Assembly (NCBI GenBank): GCA_015069135.1
Contig: SVJE01000006.1
Location: forward strand, 19,643 to 83,642
Direction: 5' to 3'
Length of the DNA stretch: 64,000 bases
Origin: Oscillospiraceae bacterium
GTDB taxonomy: Bacteria > Bacillota > Clostridia > UBA1212 > SIG427
In this document: positions 188 to 35,334 of the stretch, one piece after another
Layout of the letters: each line of letters begins with the position of its first letter
How positions within the stretch are numbered: position 1 is the first letter of the stretch
Program-made: the position numbers and the translations under genes
Notes under the pieces: model-generated
What the model was told of the DNA's origin: nothing
Databases searched by the model: none
What the model saw: only the letters and a program-made list of their open reading frames with translations

Positions 188-1498
188 ATGAAACGCTTTG
201 TATGCTTTGGCTTAAGTTTACTGCTCCTCTTAAGTATTTCTTTTGAAACTCCTGTTATGGCCAAAAGTCCTTTGATGACTTTTGCCATAATGAGTGATAC
301 CCATATTGGAGGAGAAAAGCATATAGACAATAATAGTTTAATATTAAAGCGTGGACTTGAAGATATAAGGTCATATGAGGGAAGTACGGATGCTCTTATT
401 ATTGCGGGAGATTTAACCGACAAAGGTAAAGCATCAGAGTATGAAAATTTTAGAAGAGTGCTTTCAGGCTCACCAATAGATGAGATTTATCTTGTTATGG
501 GAAACCACGATGCCGGTCGAGATCTTACCGGAGGCTATGAAGAAGCTTTTGATAAATTTAAAAAATATTGTAGTGGATATGGTATAGATTCAGATGCCCG
601 GGTTCCTTATTATGATACATGGATAAAAGGGTATCATTTTATATTTTTATGTACCGAGGATGACACACCGGACAAGGCGTATATTTCAGAAACACAACTG
701 AAATGGTTTGAAGCACGATTGGCAGAAAATGCTGAGCTGTACAAACCAATTTTTGTAATCAGTCATAATCCTTTAAAAAATACTTTTACAAGAACGCACA
801 AAGATAATGAAAATATTGGACCACAGAGCGATCAAATTAAAGCATTGATTGAAAAATATCCTCAGGTAATATTCATGAGCGGGCATGTACATAATGGTTT
901 TGGATATTTGTCCCAATATATAAACGAAGAAAAAGGTGCATTTGTCAACATTCCTCCTGTTATAGGTGCTGATTACGGTTATGAAGCAGATTCTGTAATG
1001 TACTATACGGAGGTTTATAAAGACAAAGTTGTATTCAGAGCCCGGGATTTTGGAAAGGGTGTCTGGTTAGATCATTTTGATATTGTAGTAGCACTGAATA
1101 GGCCTGTTTATGAAGAATTTGCTCTTAAAGAAACATCTGACTATCGCCCCAGAGGCAGTTATGTAGTGGGGGTAAAATCAAAAACAAACGTTAAGGAATT
1201 TCTTTCAAATTTCAGTTATGCAGAATCTTTGGTGTGTGAGGTTTCGGATAATTTTATTGGCACAGGGGATAAACTGTTTAACAAAAAAAGAAAAAGGAGT
1301 ATAATTGCCATTATAGATGGCGATGTGGATGGCAATGGTATAATTACCACGAAAGATTATTTTGCTGTAAAACGCGCCGTTTATAATAAGGTGGGTGATT
1401 TTAAACCATGGGGAAAATATGCTGCAGACGCTGACAATGATGGTTGCATTTCATTTTACGATTGCCTTATAATTAAAAGAAAATTTTTAGAGGTATAA
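188..1498 (+). CDS. Secreted calcineurin-like metallophosphoesterase with C-terminal dockerin
   Basis: Signal peptide. Phosphoesterase motifs MSDTHIG, IAGDLTDKG, GNHD and SGHVHNG. C-terminal DGDVDGNGIITTKDY...DADNDGCISFYD matches a type I dockerin duplicated calcium-binding loop. Confidence 0.75.
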   Translation: MKRFVCFGLSLLLLLSISFETPVMAKSPLMTFAIMSDTHIGGEKHIDNNSLILKRGLEDIRSYEGSTDALIIAGDLTDKGKASEYENFRRVLSGSPIDEIYLVMGNHDAGRDLTGGYEEAFDKFKKYCSGYGIDSDARVPYYDTWIKGYHFIFLCTEDDTPDKAYISETQLKWFEARLAENAELYKPIFVISHNPLKNTFTRTHKDNENIGPQSDQIKALIEKYPQVIFMSGHVHNGFGYLSQYINEEKGAFVNIPPVIGADYGYEADSVMYYTEVYKDKVVFRARDFGKGVWLDHFDIVVALNRPVYEEFALKETSDYRPRGSYVVGVKSKTNVKEFLSNFSYAESLVCEVSDNFIGTGDKLFNKKRKRSIIAIIDGDVDGNGIITTKDYFAVKRAVYNKVGDFKPWGKYAADADNDGCISFYDCLIIKRKFLEV

Positions 1499-5238: not shown

Positions 5239-7608
5239 ATGTACAAAGTTATCAAACGTGACGGTAAAGTTGTGGACTTTAACCTGTCAAAAATCAGCGA
5301 AGCTATTACAAAGGCTTTTGAAGCAATTGACAAGCAATACAATCAGGACATTATTGATTTATTGGCTCTTAAAGTTACCTCCGACTACGAAAAGAAAGTT
5401 CAGGACGGTTTAGTATCTGTGGAAGCAATTCAGGACAGCGTAGAGGATGTATTGGTACAGGCAGGTTATGCAGATGTAGCAAAATGTTATATCCTTTACA
5501 GAAAACAGAGAGAAAAAATAAGAAACATGAAGTCTACAATTCTTGACTACAAGGAATTGGTAGATAGCTATGTGCATCTTACTGACTGGAGGGTTAAGGA
5601 AAATTCTACAGTTACATATTCAGTTGGTGGACTTATTTTATCTAACTCAGGTGCAATAACTGCCAACTACTGGCTTTCTCAGATTTATGATGAAGAAATA
5701 GGAAAGGCCCACAAAGAAGCTGATATTCATATACATGACTTGTCCATGCTTACAGGTTATTGTGCAGGATGGTCTCTTAAACAGCTTATTCAGGAAGGTT
5801 TAGGTGGTATTTCAGGTAAGATTACATCTGCACCTGCTAGTCATCTGGCAACCCTTTGTAATCAAATGGTTAACTTCCTGGGTATTATGCAGAATGAATG
5901 GGCAGGAGCACAGGCATTCTCTTCTTTTGATACATATCTGGCACCTTTTGTTAAGGTAGATAATCTATCATATACGCAGGTTAAAAAATGCATAGAATCC
6001 TTTATTTACGGTGTAAATACTCCCAGTCGTTGGGGTACACAGGCTCCATTCTCCAACATCACATTAGACTGGACAGTTCCTGCAGACTTGGCAGAACTTA
6101 ATGCTATTGTGGGCGGAAAGGAAATGGACTTTAAGTACAAAGATTGTAAGAAAGAAATGGATATGATCAACAAGGCCTTTATTGAGGTTATGATTGAAGG
6201 TGATGCTAACGGCAGAGGCTTCCAGTATCCTATCCCTACATACTCAATTACAAGTAACTTTGATTGGTCTGAAACAGAGAACAACAAGCTTCTCTTTGAG
6301 ATGACATCAAAGTATGGTACACCTTACTTCTCTAACTACATTAACAGTGATATGGAGCCAAGTGATGTAAGAAGTATGTGTTGCCGTCTACGTCTTGACT
6401 TAAGAGAACTTCGAAAGAAATCCGGTGGCTTCTTTGGTAGTGGTGAGAGCACGGGTAGTGTTGGTGTTGTAACTATTAATATGCCTAGAATTGCTTACCT
6501 GGCTGAAAACGAAGAAGCATTTTACAAGAGACTTGATAAAATGATGGATATAGCTGCAAGATCTCTTAAGACAAAGAGAACAATTATATCCAAGCTTTTA
6601 GATGAAGGTCTGTATCCATATACAAAGCGTTATCTTGGAAACTTTGACAGCCACTTCTCCACAATCGGTCTGGTAGGTATGAACGAAGCTTGTTTAAATG
6701 CTAAGTGGATAGGTCAGGATTTAACAAACGAAAAGGCTCAGAAATTTACTCAGGATGTTCTTAACCATATGAGAGAAAGACTTTCTGACTATCAGGAAAT
6801 GTACGGTGACCTCTACAACTTGGAAGCAACACCTGCAGAGTCCACATCTTATCGTCTTGCAAAACATGATGTTAAGAAGTACCCTGACATTATTACAGCT
6901 TCTGAAGGAGATGATACACCTTACTATACCAACAGCTCACACTTACCAGTTGGCTATACTGAGGATATTTTTGAAGCTCTTGATATTCAGGATGAATTAC
7001 AGACTCTTTACACATCGGGTACAGTATTCCATGCATTCTTGGGTGAAAAGCTTCCTACGTGGCAGGCTGCTGCGACATTGATCCGTAAAATTGCAGAGAA
7101 CTATAAGCTTCCTTACTATACATTATCGCCAACATATTCAGTGTGTAAGAATCATGGTTACATAACCGGGGAAGTATATGAGTGTCCTGAATGTGGAGAA
7201 AAAACAGAAGTTTATAGCCGTATTACAGGTTACTATCGTCCTGTTCAGAACTGGAATGATGGTAAGACTCAGGAGTTCAAGCACAGAAAGCTTTACGATA
7301 TTGCCAACTCCAAATTAAAGAGAGAGGGCAGACCTGTAGAGAAAATTGATGTAACTCCCGCTTGTAACTGCAATGAAAGTGTAACACTTCTTTTTACCAC
7401 CAAGACTTGTCCTAACTGTAAAATGGCTAAATCCTTCCTGGATAAAGCAGGCGTAAACTACAAAGTCGTTGATGCCGAAGAAGAACCTGAATTGGTTAAG
7501 CAGTTTGGAATTACCCAGGCGCCTACATTAATTGTAGCAGAAGGGGAAAACTATGATAAGTATGTAAATGCTTCTAACATTAAGAGATTTACGGAGAATT
7601 GCGGTTAA
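5239..7608 (+). CDS. nrdD: Anaerobic ribonucleoside-triphosphate reductase (class III) with C-terminal glutaredoxin/NrdH-like domain
   Basis: N-terminal ATP-cone. Zn-ribbon CKNHG...CPECG. Glycyl-radical motif SRITGYY. An extra ~100 aa follows: LFTTKTCPNCKMAK...TQAPTLIV, i.e. a CxxC thioredoxin fold with a cis-Pro strand. Confidence 0.9.
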   Translation: MYKVIKRDGKVVDFNLSKISEAITKAFEAIDKQYNQDIIDLLALKVTSDYEKKVQDGLVSVEAIQDSVEDVLVQAGYADVAKCYILYRKQREKIRNMKSTILDYKELVDSYVHLTDWRVKENSTVTYSVGGLILSNSGAITANYWLSQIYDEEIGKAHKEADIHIHDLSMLTGYCAGWSLKQLIQEGLGGISGKITSAPASHLATLCNQMVNFLGIMQNEWAGAQAFSSFDTYLAPFVKVDNLSYTQVKKCIESFIYGVNTPSRWGTQAPFSNITLDWTVPADLAELNAIVGGKEMDFKYKDCKKEMDMINKAFIEVMIEGDANGRGFQYPIPTYSITSNFDWSETENNKLLFEMTSKYGTPYFSNYINSDMEPSDVRSMCCRLRLDLRELRKKSGGFFGSGESTGSVGVVTINMPRIAYLAENEEAFYKRLDKMMDIAARSLKTKRTIISKLLDEGLYPYTKRYLGNFDSHFSTIGLVGMNEACLNAKWIGQDLTNEKAQKFTQDVLNHMRERLSDYQEMYGDLYNLEATPAESTSYRLAKHDVKKYPDIITASEGDDTPYYTNSSHLPVGYTEDIFEALDIQDELQTLYTSGTVFHAFLGEKLPTWQAAATLIRKIAENYKLPYYTLSPTYSVCKNHGYITGEVYECPECGEKTEVYSRITGYYRPVQNWNDGKTQEFKHRKLYDIANSKLKREGRPVEKIDVTPACNCNESVTLLFTTKTCPNCKMAKSFLDKAGVNYKVVDAEEEPELVKQFGITQAPTLIVAEGENYDKYVNASNIKRFTENCG

Positions 7609-7612
7609 TAAA

Positions 7613-8527
7613 ATGATGTATGATATTTTAATTGTTGGTGGAGGCTGTGCAGGATTGACAGCCTCCATATACGGTGCGAGAGCCGGTATGAAAGTTTTGG
7701 TTATAGAGGGAAGCTCCATAGGTGGACAGATCAGTTCATCACCAAAGGTGGAAAATTATCCGGGCTTTATGGAAATAAGCGGTATGGAATTTTCAGACCG
7801 CTTGTATGAGCAGGCTATGAACTTAGGTGTAACTCTTGAATTTGACACGATACAGAAAGCTGAAAAACTTAATGAAGGTTTTAAGCTTACCGGTGAGTAT
7901 GGCGAATATGAAGGTAAGAGTCTTATAATTGCTACAGGGGCCAAACACAGACATTTGGGAGTCCCCGGGGAAGAAGAGCTTTCCGGCAAAGGCGTTTCCT
8001 ATTGTGCTGTGTGCGACGGTGCATTTTATCGGGGGAAAATTGTAGCTGTTATAGGTGGTGGCAGCAGTGCTTTACAAAGTGCTGAGCTTATGGCAGGCTA
8101 CTGTGAAAAGGTTTACCTTATTCATCGGCGTGACGAATTTCGAGGTGAAACTGCTTTGGCAGAGCGCCTTAAAACGAAAGAAAATGTGGAGTTTTTACTT
8201 TCTTCTGTCGTTGAAGAATTTGTAGCAGGGGAAGACGGAAAGTTGGATACGTTAAAGGTAAAATGTCTGATTTCCGGTAGTGTTTCTGACGTGGTTGTAA
8301 ACGGTGCCTTTATTTCCGTTGGTCAGCAGCCTGATAACGAAGTTTTTAAAGATCTTGTATCTTTGGACAGCACAGGTTTTGTAGTGGCAGGAGAGGACTG
8401 TAAGACTACCTGTGAAGGTGTGTGGTGTGCAGGAGACTGCAGAACCAAGGCCATAAGGCAACTTTCCACAGCGGCGGCTGATGGTACTGTGGCAGCATTA
8501 AGTGCAGCCGAGTATTTAAGAGGATAA
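7613..8527 (+). CDS. trxB: Thioredoxin-disulfide reductase
   Basis: FAD motif IVGGGCAG, redox-active CAVC, NADPH motif GGGSSA. Start chosen at ATG 7613 (MMYDIL) rather than the upstream in-frame TTG that would overlap nrdD. Confidence 0.85.
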   Translation: MMYDILIVGGGCAGLTASIYGARAGMKVLVIEGSSIGGQISSSPKVENYPGFMEISGMEFSDRLYEQAMNLGVTLEFDTIQKAEKLNEGFKLTGEYGEYEGKSLIIATGAKHRHLGVPGEEELSGKGVSYCAVCDGAFYRGKIVAVIGGGSSALQSAELMAGYCEKVYLIHRRDEFRGETALAERLKTKENVEFLLSSVVEEFVAGEDGKLDTLKVKCLISGSVSDVVVNGAFISVGQQPDNEVFKDLVSLDSTGFVVAGEDCKTTCEGVWCAGDCRTKAIRQLSTAAADGTVAALSAAEYLRG

Positions 8528-20043: not shown

Positions 20044-21231
20044 ATGCAGGAAATTAAATGTCCTAAATGCGGAGAAGTGTTTCAGGTAGACCAGGCTGGC
20101 TATGCAGCTATTGTAAAGCAAGTAAGGGATACTGAATTTAATAAAGAGCTTTCAGAAAGAGAAGGCTTACTTAAAGAGCGTCAGCAGACTGCGGTTAAAC
20201 TTGCCCAGGCAGAAACTGCAGAAAAACTTAATGAGAAATTAAGTGAAAAAGAAAAGGAAATTGCTGAGCTTAAGGCTAAGCTTCTGGCCAGTGAAACTGA
20301 AAAGAAACTGGCAGTTACTGAAGCTGTAGCTTATAAAGATCAGGAGATTATAACCCTTAACAGTAAGATTCATACCAGTGAACAAGAAGCAAAACTTAAA
20401 GAACAGAATCTTAAAGAAAGTTATGAGCTTAAGCTTAAGAGTAAAGACGAGGAAGTGGCATTTTACAAAGATCTTAAAGCAAAGCAATCCACTAAGATGG
20501 TGGGGGAAACTCTTGAACAACATTGTGAAATTGAATTTAACAGGTTAAGAGCTACCGGCTTTAAGAATGCCTATTTTGAAAAAGATAACGATGCCAGAAG
20601 TGGTAGTAAAGGTGACTACATTTTCAGGGATTTTGATGATAACAGAATGGAGTTTATCTCAATTATGTTTGAAATGAAAAATGAAATGGATGAAACTGCC
20701 ACAAAACATAAAAACGAAGATTTTCTTAAAGAGCTTGATAAGGACCGTAGAGAGAAAAACTGTGAATATGCTGTTTTGGTTTCCTTACTGGAAGCAGACA
20801 GTGAGCTGTACAATTCCGGTATTGTTGATATGTCTCATCGCTATGAAAAAATGTATGTTATCCGTCCCCAGTTCTTTATTCCTATGATTACACTGCTTCG
20901 TAATGCGGCACTTAATTCTTTGGAATACAAACAGGAATTGGTAACAGTGCAGAATCAGAATATAGACATATCTAATTTTGAAAATGAAATAAATGATTTC
21001 AAAACAAAATTTGCATACAACTACAGACTTGCCAGTGATAAGTTTAAAAAGGCTATAGACGAGATTGATAAGACTATTGACCATTTACAGAAAACAAAAG
21101 AGGCTTTATTGTCATCAGAAAATAATTTAAGATTAGCTAACAACAAAGCTGAGGATTTGACTATTAAAAAGCTTACAAGAAATAATCCTACAATGGCTGC
21201 TAAGTTTGCTGAATTAAAAGAGGAAGAATAA
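20044..21231 (+). CDS. DUF2130-family protein (N-terminal zinc ribbon + long coiled coil)
   Basis: [28 protein letters not shown] followed by a Glu/Lys-rich heptad region. First gene of a five-gene operon. Confidence 0.55.
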
Positions 21232-22227
21232 ATGCCATTAAAAATAATCAGACAGGATATAACTAAAATAAAGGCAGATGCCATAGTAAACCCCACCAAC
21301 AAGTATATGAGGCCCGGTGGGGGAACTGATGCTGCCATTCATAAAGCTGCCGGCAAGAAACTTATGATGGAATGTATTTCTTTAGGCGAATGTCCTGAAG
21401 GAGAGGCTCGAATAACAAAAGGCTATAATCTCCCAAGTAAATACGTTATACATACTGCAGGTCCGGTGTGGAGAGACGGGCAGTGTGGTGAAAAGGAAAT
21501 TTTGGAATCTTGCTATAGAGAATGTCTTAATTTAGCTGCTGAATATAAATTAGAAAGCATTGCTTTTCCATTAATATCTTCGGGGTTGTATGGTTTTCCT
21601 AAAGACAGTGTGCTTAAAATAGCTATACAAGTTATAGGTCAGTTTTTGTTTGAAAATGAGATTGATGTATATATAGTTGTGTTTGATAAAACTGCTTATC
21701 AGCTTAGTGAGAAACTTTTTAAGGATGTTACTTCATACATTGATGATAACTATGTGGATGAACATTCGGATTGTTTTGCAAGAACTTATAGTATGCCTTC
21801 AGTTGGAATGGCTTATAGTTGTCCTTCTCCGGTTGACTGTTGCAGCGTAGAAAAAAAGGCAGATTTAGATTCCATGCTTGACAACTTAGATGAAAGTTTT
21901 TCTCAGATGTTGCTTCGCAAAATAGATGAAAAGGGCATGACGGATGTACAGTGCTATAAAAAAGCAAATATCAACAGAAAACTTTTTTCGAAAATCAGAA
22001 GCGATGTAAACTATAAGCCCAGCAAACCTACCGTAATTGCTTTTGCTGTTTCTCTGGAGTTAACACTTGAGGAAACAGAAGAAATGCTTAAAAAGGCTGG
22101 TTTTGCCCTTTCTCACAGCAATAAGTTTGATATTATAATTGAATTCTTTATAACTAACGGCAAATATGATATTTTTGAAATAAACGAGACTTTATTTGCC
22201 TTTGACCAAAGTTTGTTAGGAGCGTGA
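21232..22227 (+). CDS. Macro-domain protein (ADP-ribose binding / O-acetyl-ADP-ribose deacetylase-like) fused to C-terminal XRE-type HTH
   Basis: Macro motifs NPTN...GGGTDAAIHKAAG, KYVIHTAGPVW and IAFPLISSGLYGFP. The C-terminal ~90 aa (LLRKIDEKGMTDVQCYKKANINRKLFSKIRSD) resembles a Cro/C1 HTH. The start codon abuts the previous stop. Confidence 0.7.
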   Translation: MPLKIIRQDITKIKADAIVNPTNKYMRPGGGTDAAIHKAAGKKLMMECISLGECPEGEARITKGYNLPSKYVIHTAGPVWRDGQCGEKEILESCYRECLNLAAEYKLESIAFPLISSGLYGFPKDSVLKIAIQVIGQFLFENEIDVYIVVFDKTAYQLSEKLFKDVTSYIDDNYVDEHSDCFARTYSMPSVGMAYSCPSPVDCCSVEKKADLDSMLDNLDESFSQMLLRKIDEKGMTDVQCYKKANINRKLFSKIRSDVNYKPSKPTVIAFAVSLELTLEETEEMLKKAGFALSHSNKFDIIIEFFITNGKYDIFEINETLFAFDQSLLGA

Positions 22228-22231
22228 AAAT

Positions 22232-22582
22232 ATGGTTAAATTTATTTGTTATCCCAAATGTACTACTTGTCAGAAAGCTAAAAAATGGCTGGATGATAAT
22301 AGTGTTGAATATGAATTAAGAGATATAAAGCTTGATAATCCTTCTCTTAAAGAATTGGAGCATTGGTATAAATTAAGCGGACAACCATTAAAGAAGTTTT
22401 ATAATACCAGCGGTCTTTTATACAAGTCCATGGCCATTAAAGATAAACTTCCTTCTATGAGTGATGAGGAAATGCTTAAACTTCTGGCTTCAGACGGAAT
22501 GTTGGTTAAAAGGCCTTTGGTCATAGGAGATGATTTTGTTCTTATAGGCTTTAAGGAAGCAGAGTGGAAATGTCTCCTGTGA
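22232..22582 (+). CDS. ArsC/Spx-family thioredoxin-fold protein
   Basis: MVKFICYPKCTTCQKAKKWL has an N-terminal CxxC like Spx, YffB or ArsC. 116 aa. Confidence 0.6.
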   Translation: MVKFICYPKCTTCQKAKKWLDDNSVEYELRDIKLDNPSLKELEHWYKLSGQPLKKFYNTSGLLYKSMAIKDKLPSMSDEEMLKLLASDGMLVKRPLVIGDDFVLIGFKEAEWKCLL

Positions 22583-22672
22583 AGCGACCTTTTGTATTAA
22601 TATAACCTGTAAAATGTGATTGTAAGGTTATTAAACCTGCAATCACATTTTTATTTTATCGGAGGTTATATT

Positions 22673-23323
22673 ATGAAAAACAACATTACTGAATTAGTAT
22701 TTATTTTGGACAGAAGCGGTTCTATGGCAGGATTGGAAGCTGACACTATCGGTGGATTTAACTCAATGATTGAAAAGCAGAAGAAACTTGATGATAAGTG
22801 TTATGTATCAACGGTGCTTTTTGACAGTGTTAGTGAAGTGCTTCACGACAGAGTGGAACTTAGGGATATTAAGCCTATGACGGAAGACGAATATTTTACC
22901 AGAGGATGTACCGCACTTCTTGATGCCATTGGCGGTGCCATTCACCATATAGGAAATATTCACAAATATGCCCGCCCTGAAGATGTGCCTGAGCACACAA
23001 TGTTTGTAATCACCACAGACGGAATGGAGAATGCCAGTCACAAATATTCTTCAAGAAAAGTTAAGGCAATGATAGAAAGACAGAAAGAAAAGTATGGCTG
23101 GGAGTTTATATTCATAGGTGCAAACATTGACGCTGTGGAAACAGCAGCCAGGTATGGAATAGCACCTGAACGAGCTGTTAATTACAACGCAGATAAAGAA
23201 GGCACCAAGGTTTTGTATCAGACTGTTTCTAAGGCAGTGGGCCAGGTAAGATGTTCTGCACCGTTAGATGACAGCTGGAGTATGGACATTGATAATGATT
23301 ACAAAAAGAGAGGGAAGAAATAA
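22673..23323 (+). CDS. von Willebrand factor type A domain protein
   Basis: MIDAS motif DRSGSM plus downstream T and D positions. GGAGG RBS in front of ATG 22673. Confidence 0.6.
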   Translation: MKNNITELVFILDRSGSMAGLEADTIGGFNSMIEKQKKLDDKCYVSTVLFDSVSEVLHDRVELRDIKPMTEDEYFTRGCTALLDAIGGAIHHIGNIHKYARPEDVPEHTMFVITTDGMENASHKYSSRKVKAMIERQKEKYGWEFIFIGANIDAVETAARYGIAPERAVNYNADKEGTKVLYQTVSKAVGQVRCSAPLDDSWSMDIDNDYKKRGKK

Positions 23324-24141
23324 TGAAGAAAACAAAATTAGCAGGTGAAATTTTAGGAGATGTTGTAGGATCTGTGTATGAATTTGATAACATTAAAACA
23401 AAAGAGTTTCCTTTGTTTGGCAAGTATTGTATGTTCACTGATGATACAGTTCTTACATTGGCAGTAGCCAAGTCTTTGTGTGAGACTGATGCTCATAAGG
23501 ATATTGAAGATTTTAAGAAGAGGTTGGTTTATAATATGCATCTTTTAGGACATGAATATCCTGATGCAGGTTTTGGGGGAAGATTTATGAATTGGCTGGA
23601 AACAGGAAACAAGGAACCGTATAACAGCTGTGGTAACGGCTCTGCTATGAGAGTTTCTCCTGTTGGCTGGTATGCTGAAAGTTTAGAAGAGGCAGAAGCC
23701 CTTGCTACAGCCTCTGCAGAAGTTACTCATAATCATCCTGAAGGAATTAAGGGTGCCGTTTCAGTGGCAGGAGCTATTTATCTTGCAAGAACAGGGGTCG
23801 GTAAAAAGGAAATCTATGAATATTGTAAAAAGTTCTATAATCTTGATTTTACTTTAGATGAAATCAGACCCACATATTATTTTGTGGAAACTTGTCAGGA
23901 AAGTGTACCTCAGGCATTAGTAGCTTTTTTTGAAAGTGAATCATTTGAGGATGCCATAAGAAATGCAATTTCTATAGGTGGTGACAGTGACACTATAGCT
24001 GCTATTACAGGATCTATAGCAGAGGCATTTTACGGCATTGACGAAGATCTTGAAGAAGCAGCCCTTTCATATCTGGATGAGAGATTGCTTAATATTGTGG
24101 ATTTGTTTGCAGATAAAATAAGGGACACCCAAAACCGATAA
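23323..24141 (+). CDS. ADP-ribosylglycohydrolase (DraG/ARH family)
   Basis: GDVVGSVYEF, CGNGSAMRVSPVG and GGDSDTIAAITG blocks are typical of the ARH fold. Start overlaps the vWA stop (TAATG). Confidence 0.75.
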   Translation: MKKTKLAGEILGDVVGSVYEFDNIKTKEFPLFGKYCMFTDDTVLTLAVAKSLCETDAHKDIEDFKKRLVYNMHLLGHEYPDAGFGGRFMNWLETGNKEPYNSCGNGSAMRVSPVGWYAESLEEAEALATASAEVTHNHPEGIKGAVSVAGAIYLARTGVGKKEIYEYCKKFYNLDFTLDEIRPTYYFVETCQESVPQALVAFFESESFEDAIRNAISIGGDSDTIAAITGSIAEAFYGIDEDLEEAALSYLDERLLNIVDLFADKIRDTQNR

Positions 24142-24172
24142 AAATATGATTTGGGTGTGATTTTAAGACAAA

Positions 24173-24221
24173 AAGGAACCCAAAGTTGTAAAGTTTTACT
24201 TCGTTGGGTTCCTCTTTTTTT
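24173..24221 (+). terminator. Terminator of the five-gene operon
   Basis: GGAACCCAA, 20-nt loop, TTGGGTTCC, followed by T8. Confidence 0.6.
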
Positions 24222-24242
24222 GAGCTTTTAGGCGTTTTTTCG

Positions 24243-24288
24243 GTAAAAAGGAACCCAAATGTGGTGCTTTTTTTGTTTTGGGTTCCCT
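24243..24288 (-). terminator. Terminator for the minus-strand GTPase-like gene
   Basis: Minus strand GGGAACCCAAA...TTTGGGTTCC followed by TTTTT. Confidence 0.6.
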
Positions 24289-24299
24289 AAATACTGATA

Positions 24300-24827
24300 T
24301 TATTTTTCTAAAATTACATTAACTAATTCTTCAATTGAATCTCCCCAGTTTTCATCAGGGAATGAGATGGCTTTTTCTGCAGAACCACGGACTATTGGAG
24401 CTTTGCCGGTATAGCCGTATTCTTCCAACAGGTTTTGCACATCTTCAGGAATGGCATCGTATAAAAATTCATCCTCATAAAAATCTTCCTGAAATATATC
24501 ATATTTGCTTAAGTACATTACAATTTTATTTATACCATTTTCAAGGCACAGCTTTATTTGTTGTCTGGTACCTCCCATGGCACCTTCTGCCTGTGGGCAT
24601 ACCAAAACTACAACATCAATATCACATTTGTAATTTTCAAAGAAATCTTCGTATTGATAGTCCCCTGAAAAATCAAAAAAATTAAGCATTTTACCCTTTA
24701 AGCTAAGGGTAGTTAAAGAAGTGCCTTCCATAGGCTCGTTAACCCGTATGGTTTCCGAATCAAGTCCCAATCTTTTGTTAAGTACAACTGAAATTGCTTT
24801 GTTAAGAGTTGTTTTGCCATGATCCAA
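24300..24827 (-). CDS. Stand-alone EF-Tu domain-I-like GTP-binding protein (G domain only)
   Basis: Aligns to the EF-Tu G domain: G1 (GN)LDHGKTTL, G3 DFSGD (EF-Tu DCPGH), G4 SKYD (EF-Tu NKCD), G5 SAEKA. Ends where EF-Tu domain I ends. The only canonical start is TTG 24827, inside the P-loop. An in-frame ATT/ATA lies 2-5 nt after the upstream stop. Confidence 0.55.
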   Translation of the reverse strand: MDHGKTTLNKAISVVLNKRLGLDSETIRVNEPMEGTSLTTLSLKGKMLNFFDFSGDYQYEDFFENYKCDIDVVVLVCPQAEGAMGGTRQQIKLCLENGINKIVMYLSKYDIFQEDFYEDEFLYDAIPEDVQNLLEEYGYTGKAPIVRGSAEKAISFPDENWGDSIEELVNVILEK

Positions 24828-24847
24828 ATTACCGCAAATTAAAATAT

Positions 24848-25459
24848 TTATTGATTAAATCTACCTTCTTCTAATGTTTTGTTTCTGTAATAATATTTTT
24901 TATCTTCCTCAGTTATTCTACGGATAACTTTACAAGGATTTCCTAAAGCCAGGGACCACTCTGGTATATCTTTTGTAACAACACTGCCGGCCCCGATTAC
25001 TGAATTGTCTCCAATGTGAACCCCGGGACATATTACTACATTTCCGCCAATCCATACGTTATTACCAATTGTGATTTCCATACCGTATTCGTAACCTGTA
25101 TTTCTTATATCAGGATGAAGTGGGTGACCTGCAGTATAAAGGGAAACATTTGGTCCAAGCATACAGTTGTCACCAAATGTAACTTTCGCATTATCTAAAA
25201 TAACACAGTTGTAGTTTGCAAAGAAATTTTTACCTACAAATATATTTGAACCATAGTCACAACAAAAAGGGGGATTTATAAATGTGGTTTCGTCAGACTT
25301 ACCTAAAAGTTTGTTTACTATTGAACGGATTTTATCAAAATCTGCTCTGTCCACAGTGTTCATTTCCTGTGTAAGTCTGCGGGTTTCTTTCATTTCTGCC
25401 CAATCATCCTGGTCAGGAAAGAATAAAAGGCCTTTGTTTCTTCTGTCTCTGGTGCTCAT
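24848..25459 (-). CDS. Hexapeptide-repeat O-acetyltransferase (maltose/galactoside O-acetyltransferase family)
   Basis: Left-handed beta-helix repeats and conserved ...YTAGHPLHPD...IGNNVWIGGNVVI. Start at MSTRDRR. Confidence 0.75.
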   Translation of the reverse strand: MSTRDRRNKGLLFFPDQDDWAEMKETRRLTQEMNTVDRADFDKIRSIVNKLLGKSDETTFINPPFCCDYGSNIFVGKNFFANYNCVILDNAKVTFGDNCMLGPNVSLYTAGHPLHPDIRNTGYEYGMEITIGNNVWIGGNVVICPGVHIGDNSVIGAGSVVTKDIPEWSLALGNPCKVIRRITEEDKKYYYRNKTLEEGRFNQ

Positions 25460-25614
25460 ATAATGCTCCTCTTTATAAATATTTTTAATAATTATCTGTG
25501 TTTTTTTAGTCCATGTCAATGAATTTATAGTTATGTGACTTTATCACAGAAAGGATATAAAAGTTTGGATATAATATAACCATAAAAGAAAACAACTTAT
25601 AGGAGGTACAAACA

Positions 25615-25920
25615 ATGTTTGCATTAGAAATTAATAAAAATAATTTTCACGAAGAAGTAATGAATTCTGATAAACCGGTGCTTTTGGACTTCTGGGCACC
25701 ATGGTGCGGACCTTGCCGTATGGTGGTTCCCATAGTTGAGGAAATTGCTAAAGAGCGAGAAGATATAAAGGTGGGTAAAATCAATGTAGACGAAAATCCT
25801 GAGCTTGCTTCTGCATTCGAAATAATGAGTATACCTACACTGATGGTTATAAAAAACGGAGAAGTGGTAAACCAAATCTCCGGTGCCAGATCTAAAAATC
25901 AGATTTTAGCAATGGTGTAA
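25615..25920 (+). CDS. trxA: Thioredoxin
   Basis: WAPWCGPCR active site. 101 aa. Confidence 0.85.
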   Translation: MFALEINKNNFHEEVMNSDKPVLLDFWAPWCGPCRMVVPIVEEIAKEREDIKVGKINVDENPELASAFEIMSIPTLMVIKNGEVVNQISGARSKNQILAMV

Positions 25921-26539
25921 TTTCAATAGTACCACGGGATAATTTTACAAGGCCTTCCTCCTGAAAATATTTAAGCATTCTGGTGACTACTTCTCTGTGA
26001 GTGCCTAAATGGTTAGCAATAATCTCGTGTGTTATTTTAAGTGTATCAGAGTTTTCTAAGGTTGCCTCTTCCAAAAGGAATGAGGCAATTCTTTTGTCTA
26101 AACTTTTCCAGAGTATTTGCTCTATAAGCCACATTACTTCAGAAAAACGGCTGGCTATTATTTCATTGGTATAGTTGGCTAAAATTGCAGACTCTGCCAT
26201 TATGTTTTTGTAAATTTCCGGAGGAATAATAAACATTTCTGTGTCTTTTTCTGCTTCAATAGTTATATCAAACTGAATGGAATTCATAATGCATGAAGCG
26301 GAGAATAGGCAAATGTCGTATTCAAAAAGTCTGTATATTGTAATTTCACGGCCTTCTTCAGACAGAATGTAAGCCCGGAGGCGACCGCTTTTTACCAGCA
26401 CAAGACCGGTACAGTCATTGCTTCCGTTATGAATAACTGTGCCTTTTGGAACTGTGCGGGAAATTGCAGCTTCGGATATTTTGTTTTGTTGGTCAGAAGT
26501 TAGTTTCTGCCAGATGGGAAAGTAGTCTTTAATATTCAT
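25892..26539 (-). CDS. Crp/Fnr family transcriptional regulator
   Basis: cNMP-binding beta-roll followed by a C-terminal HTH (ITHEIIANHLGTHREVVTRMLK). Its 3' end overlaps trxA convergently by 29 nt. Confidence 0.7.
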   Translation of the reverse strand: MNIKDYFPIWQKLTSDQQNKISEAAISRTVPKGTVIHNGSNDCTGLVLVKSGRLRAYILSEEGREITIYRLFEYDICLFSASCIMNSIQFDITIEAEKDTEMFIIPPEIYKNIMAESAILANYTNEIIASRFSEVMWLIEQILWKSLDKRIASFLLEEATLENSDTLKITHEIIANHLGTHREVVTRMLKYFQEEGLVKLSRGTIEITPLLKSDF

Positions 26540-32553: not shown

Positions 32554-32562
32554 GGAATGAAT

Positions 32563-35334
32563 ATGAAAGATACAGAACAACGTATAGCCGCAAAGGCATT
32601 TTCTGAATATTGGCAAGGTAAGGGATATGAAAAAGGTGAAAGTCAATCCTTTTGGTTGTCTCTTCTTCGTGATGTCTTAGGCGTTTCACAACCTGAAAAG
32701 TTTATTACTTTTGAGGAGCAGGTTCGTCTTGACCATACAAGCTTCATAGATGGTGTTATTCCTTCTACTCATGTACTTATAGAGCAGAAAGGACGAGGCA
32801 AGGATCTCAGAAAGCCTATTAAACAGTCTGATGGTACTCCTCTTACTCCTTTTCAGCAAGCCCAGCGTTATTCTGCTGTTTTGCCTTATTCTCAGCGCCC
32901 CCGTTGGATTGTGACCTGTAACTTTGAAGAGTTCCTTATATATGACATGGAAAAGCCTAATGGTGAGCCTGAACAGATATTCTTAAAAGACTTGGAAAAA
33001 GAATATTATCGCCTTGGATTTTTAGTGGATACAGGTAACGAAAATATCCGCCGTGAAATGGAAGTTTCTATTCAGGCAGGTAATCTTGTAGGTGTTCTTT
33101 ATGATGCTATTCTTAAACAATATAAAGACCCTGAAAATGAGGAAACTCTTAAGAGTCTTAATAAGCTTATAGTTCGTCTTGTTTTCTGTTTATATGCAGA
33201 AGATGCGGGCATTTTTGGCAGTCATACAAAGTTCCACGACTACATAAATTCTTTCCCTGCAAGTGGCATGAGAAAGGCTTTGATAGAGCTTTTTAAGATT
33301 CTTGATACTAAAACTGAAGATAGGGACCCTTATGAAGAAGAAATGTTGTTGGCTTTCCCTTATGTAAATGGTGGTCTTTTTGCTGATGAAAATATTGAAA
33401 TTCCTCAGATGAGTGATGAAATCCGTGATTTGCTTTTAAGAAAGGCCAGCGAAGATTTCGACTGGAGTGCTATCAGTCCTACTATCTTTGGTGCTGTTTT
33501 TGAAAGCACATTGAACCCTGAAACCCGTCGTAGTGGTGGTATGCACTATACATCCATAGAGAACATACATAAGGTTATTGATCCTTTGTTCCTGGATGAG
33601 CTTCGTGAAGAATTAGAGGAGATCAAAGATATTAAAGTTACTAAAACAAGAGACGGTAAAATACATCAATTCCGTGAAAAGTTAGGTAGCCTTACATTCT
33701 TAGACCCTGCTTGTGGTTCCGGTAACTTCTTAACTGAAACATATATTTCTTTACGTCGTCTGGAAAATGAAGCTATAGCTATTATGACTGATGGTCAGAT
33801 GCTTATAGATGTAAGTGATATTATTAAAGTTTCTATAGGGCAGTTCTATGGTATTGAAATAAATGACTTTGCTGTTACTGTTGCAAAGACTGCTCTCTGG
33901 ATAGCTGAAAGCCAGATGATGAAAGAAACGGAAGATATTGCAAGGGTGAACCTTGATTTCTTACCGTTAAAATCTTATGCCAATATTGTGGAGGGTAATG
34001 CTCTTAGAATTGATTGGGAGAGTGTAGTGCCGAAGGAGAAGCTTAATTATATAATGGGTAATCCGCCGTTTGTGGGACAGGCGATGCGTACGAAGGAACA
34101 AGCAAATGATATTCAAGATGTCTTTGCACCATCGCCAGCAGGTGGTAAGTTAGATTATGTTGCAGGCTGGTTCAAGAAATCGGCTGACATTATGAAAAAT
34201 ACAAAGATTCAGGCATCATTTGTATCGTCAAATTCGATATGCCAAGGTGAGTCTGTCCAATTGTTATGGGAAATGCTTTTAGGGGATGGTATTTTTATCA
34301 ACTTTGCTCATTCTACATTTTTGTGGACGAGCGAAGCAAAGGATAAAGCGGCGGTTATGTGTGTAATAGTTGGATTTTCTTATATTGAACGAAAACACAA
34401 ATTACTTTTTGTAGGAGAGCAATACAAGGTAGTAAACCATATAAATGGTTACTTGAAAGATGCACCCGATGTATTTATTAAAAATCGTAGCAAAAGTATT
34501 AATGCCGGTGGGGCAAAAGTTGTGCAAGGCAGTCCTCCAGCGGATGACGGAAGACTTCTTTTATCGGCAGAAGAACGTAGAATTTTGCTTGAAAAATATC
34601 CGGAATTAGAACCTGTTATTAAACCTTTTATAGGTAGTAGGGAATTCATAAATGATACATCATATAAACGATATTGTTTTTGGTTTGTAGATGAATCTCC
34701 CCATAAATATCAACATATTCCTGAGTTGATTGAACGATTCAATTATATTCGTGAGTATAGACTAAAAAGTCCAGTTGATAGAATACAAAAAACAGCAAAT
34801 AAGCCATATTTGTTTACCCAAAATAGACAACCAAAAACAGAGTATTTGATTATACCTCGTGTGTCATCTTCGAACAGAAAATACATTCCGATAGGATTCC
34901 TGCCAGCAAATGTTATCGCAAGTGATTCGGCTGTATTAGTTTACAATGCTACACTATATGATTTTGGTATTATTTGTTCGAATGTTCATAATGCTTGGAT
35001 GAGAACGATTGCTGGTAGATTAAAAAATGACTATCGTTATGCTCCGTCAGTGTACTATAATTTCCCATTTCCAATTGTTGAAGAAAATGACAAGGTGAAA
35101 ATATGTAAAACTGCACAAGCAATTTTGAATGCAAGAAAATTATATAAGGATAAAAGCTTGGCGGATATGTATGGCGATGCTATGTATTTATATCCTGAAT
35201 TATTGCAGGCTCATCAAGAAAATGACAGGGCTGTAATGAAATTGTATGGTTTTGATATTAAAACAACAACGGAATCTACCTGCGTAGCAGAGTTGATGAA
35301 GATGTATCAAGAATTGGTGAAAGAGAAAGGTTGA
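32563..35334 (+). CDS. MmeI-family type IIL restriction-modification enzyme (endonuclease + N6-adenine MTase + TRD in one chain)
   Basis: Blocks match MmeI: PD-ExK-like D...EQKGRGKDL, AFPYVNGGLF, HYTSIENIHKVIDPLFLDEL, SAM site LDPACGSGNF, catalytic NPPF. About 923 aa. A 4-nt gap separates it from the Fic stop. Confidence 0.85.
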   Translation: MKDTEQRIAAKAFSEYWQGKGYEKGESQSFWLSLLRDVLGVSQPEKFITFEEQVRLDHTSFIDGVIPSTHVLIEQKGRGKDLRKPIKQSDGTPLTPFQQAQRYSAVLPYSQRPRWIVTCNFEEFLIYDMEKPNGEPEQIFLKDLEKEYYRLGFLVDTGNENIRREMEVSIQAGNLVGVLYDAILKQYKDPENEETLKSLNKLIVRLVFCLYAEDAGIFGSHTKFHDYINSFPASGMRKALIELFKILDTKTEDRDPYEEEMLLAFPYVNGGLFADENIEIPQMSDEIRDLLLRKASEDFDWSAISPTIFGAVFESTLNPETRRSGGMHYTSIENIHKVIDPLFLDELREELEEIKDIKVTKTRDGKIHQFREKLGSLTFLDPACGSGNFLTETYISLRRLENEAIAIMTDGQMLIDVSDIIKVSIGQFYGIEINDFAVTVAKTALWIAESQMMKETEDIARVNLDFLPLKSYANIVEGNALRIDWESVVPKEKLNYIMGNPPFVGQAMRTKEQANDIQDVFAPSPAGGKLDYVAGWFKKSADIMKNTKIQASFVSSNSICQGESVQLLWEMLLGDGIFINFAHSTFLWTSEAKDKAAVMCVIVGFSYIERKHKLLFVGEQYKVVNHINGYLKDAPDVFIKNRSKSINAGGAKVVQGSPPADDGRLLLSAEERRILLEKYPELEPVIKPFIGSREFINDTSYKRYCFWFVDESPHKYQHIPELIERFNYIREYRLKSPVDRIQKTANKPYLFTQNRQPKTEYLIIPRVSSSNRKYIPIGFLPANVIASDSAVLVYNATLYDFGIICSNVHNAWMRTIAGRLKNDYRYAPSVYYNFPFPIVEENDKVKICKTAQAILNARKLYKDKSLADMYGDAMYLYPELLQAHQENDRAVMKLYGFDIKTTTESTCVAELMKMYQELVKEKG

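What the first reader, a model, noticed from the sequence alone, without database searches (positions are those of the whole stretch)
24300..25459. Stand-alone EF-Tu domain-I paralog with substituted catalytic residues, translationally coupled to a hexapeptide acetyltransferase
The 175-aa ORF aligns along its whole length to the EF-Tu G domain and stops exactly where domain I ends. The key correspondences are:
- GNLDHGKTTL to GHVDHGKTTL.
- SKYD to NKCD.
- IVRGSAEKA to IVRGSALKA.

The catalytic His of the DCPGH motif is replaced (DFSGD). The G4 Asn is Ser. The switch I region is rewritten. GTP hydrolysis and ribosome coupling are therefore probably lost.

The only ATG/GTG/TTG start (TTG 24827) lies inside the P-loop. 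An in-frame ATT sits 2 nt after the acetyltransferase stop. So the gene is either started non-canonically or is P-loop-truncated.

Its neighbour belongs to the same hexapeptide family as the Vat/Cat xenobiotic acetyltransferases. This might be a decoy or sensor for EF-Tu-targeting compounds or toxins, or an EF-Tu-derived regulatory module. I know of no described domain-I-only EF-Tu paralog.
Basis: partly seen in the sequence, partly recalled or inferred. Interest (0 to 1): 0.6.

Follow-up and report, generated by a model that had tools for sequence, protein, structure and literature searches.

The report
Stand-alone EF-Tu G-domain gene, ATA start
This is a real gene from a rare, apparently undescribed family of gut and rumen Clostridia proteins that consist only of the GTP-binding domain of translation factor EF-Tu. 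In this strain its ATG start codon has mutated to ATA, so it is probably made only at low level, if at all.

Summary
On the minus strand, 24300-24851 encodes a 183-codon frame that matches only the EF-Tu G domain (Pfam GTP_EFTU E=4e-18, EF-Tu residues 13-196). It ends where domain I ends. It has DFSGD in place of DCPGH, SKYD in place of NKCD, and a rewritten switch I.

It is not a tuf fragment. It falls in a clade of at least 23 short (170-207 aa) G-domain-only proteins from Oscillospiraceae-type metagenomes (NJ bootstrap 98/100 against EF-Tu). Several have their own SD and ATG. dN/dS against a 91%-identical relative is 0.15.

That relative has an ATGA overlap with the upstream acetyltransferase. 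In the window one G-to-A change gives ATAA, which keeps the stop but turns ATG into ATA. The true N-terminus is therefore the ATA at 24849-24851, not the TTG or the ATT.

The acetyltransferase is Maa/LacA-like, not Vat/Cat-like, and is linked only in this lineage. Other members sit beside other genes.

The residues for guanine-nucleotide binding are kept. The catalytic His and domains II and III are not. Most likely it is a nucleotide-binding, hydrolysis-impaired module rather than a translation factor. The decoy idea is untested and has no support from gene context.

The parts
24300..24851 (-). G-domain-only EF-Tu paralog: 183 codons plus a TAA stop at 24300-24302, read from the ATA at 24849-24851
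   Evidence: homology. (NCBI MBE7057068.1, 183 aa, MNILICGN...). (AF2 pLDDT 86, pTM 0.86). (Foldseek top hits are EF-Tu, TM about 0.8 on the query).
24849..24851 (-). ATA at the position of the ancestral ATG start. It overlaps the acetyltransferase stop TAA (24848-24850), giving ATAA where the relative has ATGA
   Evidence: The same ATA is present in four JGI contigs that are 100% identical to the window.
24825..24827 (-). TTG, the only canonical start codon in the frame. It lies inside the P-loop (GN-L-DHGKT), so a product started here would lack strand beta-1 and the first P-loop Gly
   Evidence: There is no SD-like sequence at usable spacing upstream.
24843..24845 (-). It is codon 3 of the homologous protein (M-N-I)
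24807..24833 (-). G1 / P-loop, GNLDHGKTT (EF-Tu GHVDHGKTT)
   Evidence: G18, D21, H22, G23, K24 and T25 are invariant in 19 of 19 family members.
24660..24674 (-). G3 / switch II, DFSGD (EF-Tu DCPGH). Asp80 and Gly83 are kept; the catalytic His84 is replaced by Asp
24498..24509 (-). G4, SKYD (EF-Tu NKCD). Lys and Asp are kept; Asn is replaced by Ser
   Evidence: Ser is the commonest residue at this position in the family (13 of 19).
24375..24383 (-). G5, SAE (EF-Tu SAL)
24848..25459 (-). Maa/LacA-like hexapeptide O-acetyltransferase, 203 aa, ATG at 25457-25459 preceded by AAAGAGGAG. First gene of the two-gene operon
   Evidence: Hexapep. (galactoside and maltose O-acetyltransferase models, 206 and 190 bits). 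(called as 203 aa in JGI contigs)..
25491..25519 (-). Promoter-like site, TTGACA-17-GATAAT (11 of 12), upstream of the acetyltransferase
   Evidence: consensus match only.
24245..24288 (-). Terminator-like hairpin (GGGAACCCAAA...UUUGGGUUCC followed by UUUUU), 12 nt after the stop of the G-domain gene
   Evidence: -16.3 kcal/mol, z = -3.3. The region is conserved in L003.

Best explanation
The ORF is a genuine gene. It is the second cistron of a promoter - Maa-like acetyltransferase - G-domain - terminator operon.

What it belongs to: a rare, probably monophyletic family of 170-207 aa proteins. The family arose from EF-Tu by loss of domains II and III and of the N-terminal approximately 10 residues. 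So far it has been seen only in Oscillospiraceae/Ruminococcaceae-type genomes and metagenomes.

Shown:
- It keeps the residues that hold a guanine nucleotide: the P-loop G..DHGKTT, Asp80 and Gly83 of G3, Lys and Asp of G4, and Ser-Ala of G5.
- It has lost the catalytic His84 (now Asp) and His118.
- It has lost the canonical switch I.
- It has lost everything needed to bind aminoacyl-tRNA.

Inferred:
- It binds GDP/GTP but is not a ribosome-activated GTPase or a tRNA carrier.
- It acts as a small nucleotide-dependent binding or regulatory module. The likeliest surface is one that EF-Tu domain I normally uses: the ribosomal factor-binding site (SRL and L7/L12, through the invariant D21/H22 and the acidic helix D), or a protein partner made from the same operon.

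In this strain the ancestral ATG start, which overlapped the upstream TGA as ATGA, has become ATA (ATAA), and the SD is one base weaker. Any full-length protein must therefore come from inefficient initiation or re-initiation at ATA. Expression is inferred to be much reduced rather than normal.
For: Homology and domain limits.

Fold.

Family:
- (members).
- (invariant G18, D21, H22, G23, K24, T25, D80, Y87, G110, G126, D138; His84 kept in only 6 of 19).
- NJ bootstrap for family monophyly against EF-Tu representatives: 97/100 and 98/100.
- P0001 alone scores group-b members (89-94 bits) above the best true EF-Tu fragment (82 bits).

Real genes rather than fragments:
- P0002 has its own caggagg-N7-ATG.
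- P0013 and P0014 overlap their upstream genes by 4 nt. One search shows this as AGGAGGG followed by ATGA for P0014.
- dN/dS of the window against L003 is 0.15 (25 synonymous and 17 non-synonymous differences), similar to the flanking genes at 0.18 and 0.07.

Start codon:
- L003 reads CAATGAATATT and the window reads CAATAAATATT.
- The sequence is identical in four independent JGI assemblies.
- NCBI annotates the 183-aa product.

Published background:
- ATA supports reduced but detectable initiation in a Firmicute (PMC13068326).
- Overlaps of -4 nt give termination-reinitiation coupling (PMC10666635).

Operon signals.
Against: - No expression or biochemical data exist. Nucleotide binding is inferred from motifs only, and N135S plus L175E change the base pocket.
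- The window protein is as distant from the other family groups (29-33% identity) as from E. coli EF-Tu (31%). Monophyly rests on NJ trees that are open to long-branch attraction, plus the shared domain limits.
- No partner is conserved across the family, so no target is pinned down.
- Loss of ATG together with a weaker SD (AAGGTAG against AAGGTGG) also fits a gene that has just been switched off.
- The ATA lineage shows no sequence variation among the contigs found, so selection after the start-codon change cannot be measured.
Confidence: 0.65

Rival explanations
1. In this particular strain the gene is a freshly inactivated pseudogene. ATG-to-ATA and the weakened SD abolish useful translation. 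The intact frame only reflects how recent the event is, and the family may be functional elsewhere.
For: - The start codon is lost and the SD has one more mismatch than in L003.
- The only canonical start truncates the P-loop.
- In E. coli ATT, and ATA-type codons generally, initiate at well under 1% of ATG, as cited in PMC10666635 and PMC13068326.
Against: - The 552-nt frame has no frameshift or stop.
- dN/dS is 0.15 over the combined branches.
- ATA gave detectable translation in Listeria.
- The ATAA geometry preserves stop-start overlap, which favours re-initiation.
- The same single change had to keep a stop codon for the acetyltransferase, so it is one of the few tolerated mutations at this site.
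Confidence: 0.25
2. One reading: the protein is a decoy or sensor that soaks up or detects toxins or antibiotics aimed at EF-Tu. One example would be P-loop ADP-ribosyltransferases such as TreTu, which modifies D21. The acetyltransferase, or the nearby macro and ARH enzymes, would be part of the response.
For: - D21 and the whole DHGKT stretch are invariant in the family, even where catalysis is lost.
- TreTu targets EF-Tu D21 (PMC9825190).
- A convergent operon next door encodes a macro-domain protein and an ADP-ribosylglycohydrolase.
- The family is rare and fast-evolving.
- One member lies beside a TnpV-like gene and a transposase.
Against: - PADLOC gives no meaningful match.
- No member was found in viral contigs, phage records or plasmids. 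All hits there were full-length tuf or other GTPases.
- Group c sits in stable chromosomal synteny (ClpC-RidA-...-TetR-ADH/AKR) across several species.
- The macro/ARH and Maa neighbours are seen only in the window lineage.
- From general knowledge: the known EF-Tu antibiotics bind domain II or the domain I/III interface, which are absent here.
- The acetyltransferase is Maa/LacA-like, not Vat/Cat-like.
Confidence: 0.1
3. The G-domain protein is a stoichiometric subunit or regulator of the enzyme it is co-translated with. Here that would be the Maa-like acetyltransferase, and other enzymes in other lineages.
For: - The ancestral ATGA overlap with the acetyltransferase.
- Overlaps of -4 nt are enriched 4.5- to 8-fold for heteromeric complexes (PMC10666635).
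- P0013 and P0014 overlap their upstream genes by 4 nt.
- P0015 carries an N-terminal extension similar to the C-terminus of the gene upstream of P0014 (FDKxxEKEYD). This suggests a fusion.
- P0275 overlaps its downstream gene by 1 nt.
Against: - The partners differ between lineages: hexapeptide acetyltransferase, unknown proteins, NAT_N/GNAT_C acyltransferase, AKR, peptidase M29, or none.
- Maa-type enzymes are not known to need a GTP-binding subunit (general knowledge).
- No interaction data exist.
Confidence: 0.12
4. It is a truncated tuf pseudogene fragment or an assembly artefact.
For: EF-Tu fragments and chimeric assemblies are common in the protein libraries, for example P0016, P0017 and P0276.
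Against: - Only 31% identical to EF-Tu.
- It has clean domain limits, a terminator straight after the stop, and its own family with 23 or more members.
- Purifying selection is evident.
- The sequence is identical in five assemblies.
Confidence: 0.02

Closest known systems
Domain I (G domain) of bacterial elongation factor EF-Tu (TIGR00485; Pfam PF00009)
   Same: - Same fold (Foldseek TM about 0.8 on the query).
- Collinear over EF-Tu residues 13-196.
- The G1, G3 (Asp and Gly), G4 (Lys and Asp) and G5 (Ser-Ala) motifs are present.
- Helix D is acidic.
   Different: - No domains II or III, and no N-terminal approximately 10 residues.
- About 31% identity.
- His84 to Asp, His118 to Gln, Asn135 to Ser, Leu175 to Glu, His19 to Asn.
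- Switch I is shortened and rewritten, and there is a 5-residue insertion before helix D.
- NCBIfam score is 72 against a cutoff of 522.
Engineered isolated G domain of E. coli EF-Tu (Parmeggiani and co-workers, 1987; recalled from memory, not retrieved here)
   Same: A roughly 20 kDa domain-I-only protein. As I recall, it still binds GDP and GTP and no longer responds to aminoacyl-tRNA, EF-Ts or kirromycin. This gives a precedent that such a domain folds and binds nucleotide on its own.
   Different: That protein is a laboratory truncation with wild-type catalytic residues. This one is a natural, diverged gene family with the catalytic His mostly replaced.
Divergent full-length EF-Tu-like paralogs (actEF-Tu / Streptomyces Tuf3 type; SelB, CysN)
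   Same: Lineage-restricted duplicates of the EF-Tu/EF1 family with altered function (PMC4342817).
   Different: Those keep domain II and usually domain III, along with the catalytic machinery. The survey lists actEF-Tu as the only clearly distinct EF-Tu-like subfamily and describes no single-domain form.
Catalytically dead relatives of translational GTPases (e.g. yeast Tsr1, Ski7)
   Same: trGTPase-derived proteins that have lost hydrolysis and serve as binding modules (titles and abstracts).
   Different: They are eukaryotic, multi-domain, and have known partners. There is no evidence of common descent with this family beyond the superfamily.
Maltose/galactoside O-acetyltransferases (Maa, LacA), for the upstream gene
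   Same: Best NCBIfam matches cover the full length (206 and 190 bits). Hexapeptide repeats are present.
   Different: Scores are below both equivalog cutoffs (347 and 314), so the substrate is unknown. It is not a Vat or CatB enzyme (62 and 51 bits against cutoffs of 300 and 350).

Membership tests
Elongation factor Tu (TIGR00485 equivalog) | Three-domain architecture: G domain plus domain II plus domain III, about 394 aa | tested here: not met
   The ORF stops at EF-Tu position about 196. A terminator hairpin and a convergent gene follow.
Elongation factor Tu (TIGR00485 equivalog) | Score at or above the curated cutoff (522.4 bits) | tested here: not met
   72.4 bits.
Elongation factor Tu (TIGR00485 equivalog) | Catalytic His84 in DCPGH | tested here: not met
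   DFSGD at 24660-24674.
Translational-GTPase G domain (Pfam PF00009 GTP_EFTU) | Match above the gathering score over the whole domain | tested here: met
   66.1 bits against 26.5, profile positions 4-182 of 188.
Translational-GTPase G domain (Pfam PF00009 GTP_EFTU) | P-loop GxxxxGK[ST] and guanine-specificity Asp of [NT]KxD | tested here: met
   GNLDHGKT. SKYD has Lys and Asp present and Asn replaced by Ser.
Translational-GTPase G domain (Pfam PF00009 GTP_EFTU) | G-domain fold | tested here: met
   AF2 pLDDT 86 and pTM 0.86. Top 50 PDB matches are all EF-Tu, E about 1e-14.
Translational-GTPase G domain (Pfam PF00009 GTP_EFTU) | Guanine-nucleotide binding and ribosome-stimulated GTP hydrolysis | not testable with these tools
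   Needs a biochemical assay.
   Alignments A4 and A5. The window frame from the ATA aligns Met-for-Met with P0002, P0013 and P0005.
   NJ bootstrap 97 and 98 of 100. Caveats: distance method, long branches. The window group joins P0049 and P0275 in 67 of 100.
   Neighbours differ between subgroups.
Maa/LacA O-acetyltransferases (upstream gene) | Hexapeptide repeats and a full-length match to the Maa/LacA models at their cutoffs | tested here: inconclusive
   Hexapep E=1.6e-15. LacA model 206 bits (cutoff 347) and Maa model 190 bits (cutoff 314). The Mac cap is weak at E=0.0098.
Vat / CatB xenobiotic acetyltransferases (upstream gene) | Score at the family cutoff | tested here: not met
   Vat 61.9 bits against 300. 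CatB 50.6 bits against 350. Only the C-terminal repeats align.
Known anti-phage defence proteins (PADLOC-DB 2.0) | Match to any defence-system model | tested here: not met
   No hit for the window protein, P0002 or the acetyltransferase. Other members gave only chance-level P-loop hits.

The most novel reading that the evidence does not exclude
The short proteins would be a new class of EF-Tu-derived pseudo-GTPases that present the invariant EF-Tu P-loop (D21/H22) as bait. They would act as decoys or guards against toxins that modify or hijack EF-Tu domain I, for example D21 ADP-ribosyltransferases of the TreTu type. In this window the macro-domain and ADP-ribosylglycohydrolase genes next door would reverse the modification. 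Alternatively, the proteins would work as paired G domains, as suggested by the tandem P0049-P0275 genes, and switch partner enzymes by nucleotide-dependent dimerisation.
Probability: 0.08. Interest if true: 0.8.

Novelty: new variant of a known kind. Interest (0 to 1): 0.5.

Why it matters
EF-Tu is among the most conserved and best studied proteins, and its paralogs described so far keep the multi-domain layout. A natural, selected gene family made only of its G domain has several unusual features:
- The nucleotide pocket is kept but the catalytic His is mostly lost.
- Members sometimes occur as tandem pairs.
- Members are often translationally coupled to unrelated enzymes.

Such a family would show that the EF-Tu G domain can be reused as a free-standing nucleotide-binding module. 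It would also give a simple handle on which EF-Tu domain-I contacts (ribosome stalk and SRL, EF-Ts, toxins) can work without the rest of the factor.

The window also offers a clean natural example of one mutation that converts an ATGA stop-start overlap into ATAA. That makes it a test case for re-initiation at a non-canonical codon.

Tried and rejected
- **Acetyltransferase-G-domain fusion by frameshift:** rejected. The frames differ, the G-domain frame has a TAA 2 codons upstream of the ATA, there is no slippery site, and the relative has a plain ATGA.
- **Start at TTG 24827 or ATT 24843:** rejected as the homologous start, because family members and L003 all align their Met with the ATA codon.
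- **Known defence system:** no meaningful PADLOC hits. PHROGs returned only a generic translation elongation factor family for other members and nothing for the window protein.
- **Phage or plasmid origin:**
  - The viral-contig scan gave 53 loci. About 50 are full-length EF-Tu-type ORFs or copies cut by a contig end, and one (L183) looks frameshifted. None is a short family member.
  - The phage and plasmid tblastn searches gave only tuf and other GTPases.
It yielded only two extra Oscillospiraceae loci, L074 and L086.
- **Metagenome-contig scans** with P0005 and the window protein: no relatives found. No outgroup was therefore available to polarise changes on the ATA lineage.
- **The look-up of encoding contigs for P0001:** no exact record. 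Whether the NCBI MAG has ATA or ATG is therefore unknown.
- **afdb50 fold search:** library unavailable.
- **Rfam:** only four tRNAs elsewhere in the window and nothing near the locus.
- **Literature searches** for G-domain-only EF-Tu, bacterial pseudo-GTPases and EF-Tu decoys: nothing relevant found.
- **First tree script:** timed out and was redone.
Full report
**1. What is in the sequence**

The minus strand between 24300 and 25459 holds two genes.

The upstream gene (25459 to 24848) starts at an ATG preceded by AAAGAGGAG. It encodes a 203-aa hexapeptide-repeat acetyltransferase.

The downstream frame is open from a TAA at 24855-24857 to a TAA at 24300-24302. It reads SINILICGNLDHGKTTL.... 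The only ATG, GTG or TTG in its first 10 codons is the TTG at 24827, which lies inside the P-loop. An ATT lies at 24843-24845 and an ATA at 24849-24851. The ATA overlaps the acetyltransferase stop codon (TAA, 24848-24850).

A promoter-like TTGACA-17-GATAAT sits at 25519-25491. A hairpin followed by a U-run (-16.3 kcal/mol, z = -3.3) begins 12 nt after the downstream stop. The anatomy is therefore promoter, acetyltransferase, G-domain gene, terminator.

**2.

- The frame matches Pfam GTP_EFTU at E=4e-18 over profile positions 4-182 of 188.
- It matches the NCBIfam EF-Tu model at E=2.8e-20 over model positions 13-196.
- It matches EF-Tu chains in the PDB down to E=1e-17.
- SelB and EF-1alpha models score far lower, at about 30 bits.
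- The alignment ends at the last helix of domain I.
- An AlphaFold2 model built on an 11-sequence family alignment is confident (pLDDT 86, pTM 0.86). Its best 50 PDB matches are all EF-Tu (E about 1e-14, TM about 0.8 on the query).

The motif readings hold:

| Motif | Window | EF-Tu |
|---|---|---|
| G1 / P-loop | GNLDHGKTT | GHVDHGKTT |
| G3 / switch II | DFSGD | DCPGH |
| G4 | SKYD | NKCD |
| G5 | IVRGSAEKA | IVRGSALKA |

**3. It is not a tuf fragment: a family exists**

A word-indexed search with the window protein found two things:
- An NCBI entry, MBE7057068.1, a hypothetical protein from a Ruminococcaceae/Oscillospiraceae MAG. It is 183 aa and begins MNILICGN.
- A 185-aa protein, P0002, at 36% identity with DYPGY and SKLD.

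Three further searches recovered more short proteins of 170-207 aa:
- An exhaustive profile search of 1.84 billion representatives.
- Two more indexed searches.

All of these proteins start 1-4 residues before strand beta-1 and end at the end of the G domain. Everything else in the hit lists is EF-Tu, either contig-end fragments or chimeric assemblies such as P0016, P0017 and P0276.

In neighbour-joining trees the short proteins form one clade apart from 35-42 EF-Tu representatives, in 97 and 98 of 100 bootstraps. The window pair joins P0049 and P0275 in 67 of 100.

With the window protein alone as query, group-b members score 89-94 bits and the best true EF-Tu fragment scores 82 bits.

There is a caveat. 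The window protein is only 29-33% identical to the other subgroups, no closer than to E. coli EF-Tu at 31%. The trees are distance-based with long branches. Monophyly is therefore probable rather than proven.

Two members carry Oscillospiraceae names from NCBI. Two genome hits are Oscillospiraceae MAGs, one of them from sheep rectum.

**4. The members are real genes**

- P0002 has caggagg-N7-ATG and a clean stop inside its contigs.
- P0013 and P0014 overlap their upstream genes by 4 nt. The P0014 junction reads AGGAGGG followed by ATGA.
- Comparing the window gene with the 91%-identical copy on L003 gives 25 synonymous and 17 non-synonymous differences, dN/dS 0.15. The flanking acetyltransferase tail gives 0.18 and the ADP-ribosylglycohydrolase tail gives 0.07.

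**5. The start-codon puzzle**

L003 reads ...GGATTTAAGCAATGAATATTTTAATTTGCGG.... The acetyltransferase ends in TGA and the G-domain gene starts at the overlapping ATG, the classic ATGA arrangement.

The window reads ...AGATTTAATCAATAAATATTTTAATTTGCGG.... A single G-to-A change keeps a stop (TAA) for the acetyltransferase and turns ATG into ATA. The SD-like AAGGTGG of L003 is AAGGTAG in the window.

Four JGI contigs from different samples are 100% identical to the window over 3-5.7 kb, ATA included. This is therefore not a sequencing error. It also means no variation is available within the ATA lineage.

Gene callers limited to ATG, GTG and TTG call the 175-aa TTG form (P0003, P0004). NCBI lists the 183-aa form.

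Two published results bear on this:
- In Listeria, an ATG-to-ATA change lowered but did not abolish translation, in the order ATG > ATA > ATT (PMC13068326).
- Overlaps of -4 nt drive termination-reinitiation coupling and are enriched among heteromeric complexes (PMC10666635).

I infer that the homologous N-terminus is at 24851. Any full-length product arises by weak initiation or re-initiation at ATA. A TTG-started product would lack beta-1 and the first P-loop glycine and has no usable SD. A very recent loss of expression cannot be excluded.

**6. What the protein can and cannot do**

In a 19-member alignment the following are invariant, in E. coli EF-Tu numbering: G18, D21, H22, G23, K24, T25, D80, Y87, G110, G126 and D138. 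K136 is kept in 16 of 19, G83 in 16 of 19 and S173 in 16 of 19.

The catalytic His84 survives in only 6 of 19. It is Asp in the window and Tyr, Phe, Ile or Asn elsewhere. His118, an EF-Ts contact (from my own knowledge of the EF-Tu-EF-Ts complex), is variable. Switch I is rewritten in groups a and b and largely deleted in group c. Asn135 is most often Ser. Helix D keeps its acidic pattern.

Shown: the phosphate, Mg and guanine-specificity residues are under constraint, and the hydrolytic residue is not. Domains II and III, which are needed for aminoacyl-tRNA binding, are absent.

Inferred: the protein binds a guanine nucleotide but is not a ribosome-activated GTPase or a tRNA carrier. It acts as a small nucleotide-dependent binding module.

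The strict conservation of D21 and H22 goes beyond what plain nucleotide binding needs. Together with the acidic helix D, this makes the ribosomal factor-binding site (SRL, L7/L12) or another domain-I ligand the most plausible target. That step is inference only.

**7. Gene neighbourhoods**

| Member(s) | Neighbours |
|---|---|
| Window, L003 | Maa-like acetyltransferase upstream |
| Group c (P0168, P0165, P0076; L074, L086) | Stable chromosomal block: ClpC-like ATPase, RidA, C39-like protein, G-domain gene, then TetR, ADH and/or aldo-keto reductase |
| P0124 | Follows a peptidase M29 gene |
| P0002 | Between a TnpV-like gene and a transposase |
| P0013 | Overlaps an unknown upstream gene; a TPR protein lies downstream |
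| P0014 | Overlaps an unknown upstream gene; followed by a NAT_N/GNAT_C acyltransferase |
| P0015 | N-terminal extension resembling the C-terminus of the gene upstream of P0014 (a possible fusion) |
| P0049 | Follows an aldo-keto reductase; followed 13 nt later by a second family member (P0275 type, 207 aa, 37% identical to the window protein, sharing YEDFFEN). That gene overlaps a 175-aa unknown by 1 nt, and a beta-propeller-like protein follows |

No partner is common to all members.

Two patterns remain as leads: members are often tightly coupled to some neighbouring gene, and acyltransferases and aldo-keto reductases recur among those neighbours.

**8. The acetyltransferase**

Its best matches are the galactoside (206 bits) and maltose (190 bits) O-acetyltransferase models, aligned over the full length. 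Both scores are below the equivalog cutoffs. Vat and CatB models reach only 62 and 51 bits, on the C-terminal repeats. It is a Maa/LacA-like enzyme of unknown substrate, not a xenobiotic-resistance Vat or Cat enzyme.

**9. Defence, phage and plasmid checks**

- PADLOC has no meaningful match.
- PHROGs gives only a generic elongation-factor family, and only for other members.
- A viral-contig scan returned only EF-Tu-type genes: about 50 full-length or contig-end-truncated copies and one apparently frameshifted one (L183), with no short family member.
- Phage and plasmid tblastn searches returned tuf and other GTPases only.

The window itself looks like ordinary chromosome of a cellulolytic-type Clostridium. 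It carries MetH, NrdD, thioredoxin reductase, GH123 and a dockerin protein, among others.

**10. Comparison with what is known**

The closest thing is EF-Tu domain I itself.

The two trGTPase surveys I could read describe no single-domain EF-Tu relative. Atkinson 2015 names actEF-Tu as the only clearly distinct EF-Tu-like subfamily. Margus 2007 removed proteins shorter than 2/3 of the normal length by design. No Pfam or NCBIfam model is specific to these proteins. Searches for bacterial pseudo-GTPases or EF-Tu decoys found nothing relevant.

From memory, and not retrieved here: a laboratory-made EF-Tu G domain folds and binds GDP and GTP on its own. That makes the inferred behaviour plausible.

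**11. Verdict**

Three points need correction:
- The start is a lost ATG, now ATA, at 24849-24851.
- The neighbour is Maa/LacA-like, not Vat/Cat-like.
- The link to the acetyltransferase is specific to this lineage.

The decoy idea remains untested and has no support from gene context. I rate the finding as a new variant of a known kind, with moderate interest (0.5).

Noticed in passing
window 20044-24141 (+): An operon converges on the G-domain gene. It encodes DUF2130, a macro-domain protein with a long C-terminal extension, an ArsC/Spx-family protein, a vWA protein and an ADP-ribosylglycohydrolase, with abutting or overlapping ends. That puts two ADP-ribose-removing enzymes together, next to an EF-Tu P-loop paralog whose D21 equivalent is the residue ADP-ribosylated by the TreTu toxin (PMC9825190). 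The adjacency is seen only in the window lineage.
   Followed up: partly
window 24142-24299: Three copies of GGAACCCAA / TTGGGTTCC form two hairpins that act as back-to-back terminators for the convergent genes (-16.3 and -20.5 kcal/mol). The region is largely conserved in L003.
   Followed up: partly
L191 2745-6549 (also L192, L193): Two family members sit in tandem (P0049, 183 aa, then a 207-aa P0275-type protein 13 nt later). They follow an aldo-keto reductase. They precede an overlapping 175-aa protein with no Pfam match and a 330-aa beta-propeller-like protein. The arrangement suggests paired G domains working in one operon.
   Followed up: partly
L194 2-1944; protein P0015: P0014 overlaps an unknown upstream gene by 4 nt (ATGA) and is followed by a NAT_N/GNAT_C acyltransferase. 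P0015 (231 aa) carries an N-terminal extension similar to the C-terminus of that upstream protein (FDKxxEKEYD). This may be a gene fusion that points to a physical partner.
   Followed up: no
L012-L017, L074, L086: The 171-173 aa subgroup, most of which keeps the catalytic His but lacks switch I, sits in a conserved block in several Oscillospiraceae. The block runs ClpC-like ATPase, RidA, C39-like peptidase, G-domain gene, then TetR, ADH and/or a ferredoxin-domain aldo-keto reductase.
   Followed up: partly
proteins P0033, P0023, P0038, P0153: Other unusual EF-Tu G-domain derivatives lie outside the family clade. One has an N-terminal transmembrane segment (258 aa). One is 514 aa with long N- and C-terminal extensions. 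Two of about 190-200 aa have altered G3 motifs (DCYNH, DCPSA) and may be cut by contig ends.
   Followed up: no
window 32557-35334 (+): A complete MmeI-type (type IIL) restriction-modification enzyme, with all five MmeI domains.
   Followed up: no
window 188-1498 (+): A calcineurin-like phosphoesterase with a C-terminal type I dockerin. This points to a cellulosome-forming Clostridium.
   Followed up: no
window 25460-26539: A thioredoxin gene (25615-25920, +) diverges from the acetyltransferase promoter region, and a Crp/Fnr-type regulator lies at 25892-26539 (-). With the ArsC/Spx-like gene, the NrdD-glutaredoxin fusion (5239-7608) and a thioredoxin-reductase-like gene (7568-8527), the neighbourhood has a redox flavour. 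Its relevance to the G-domain gene is unknown.
   Followed up: no
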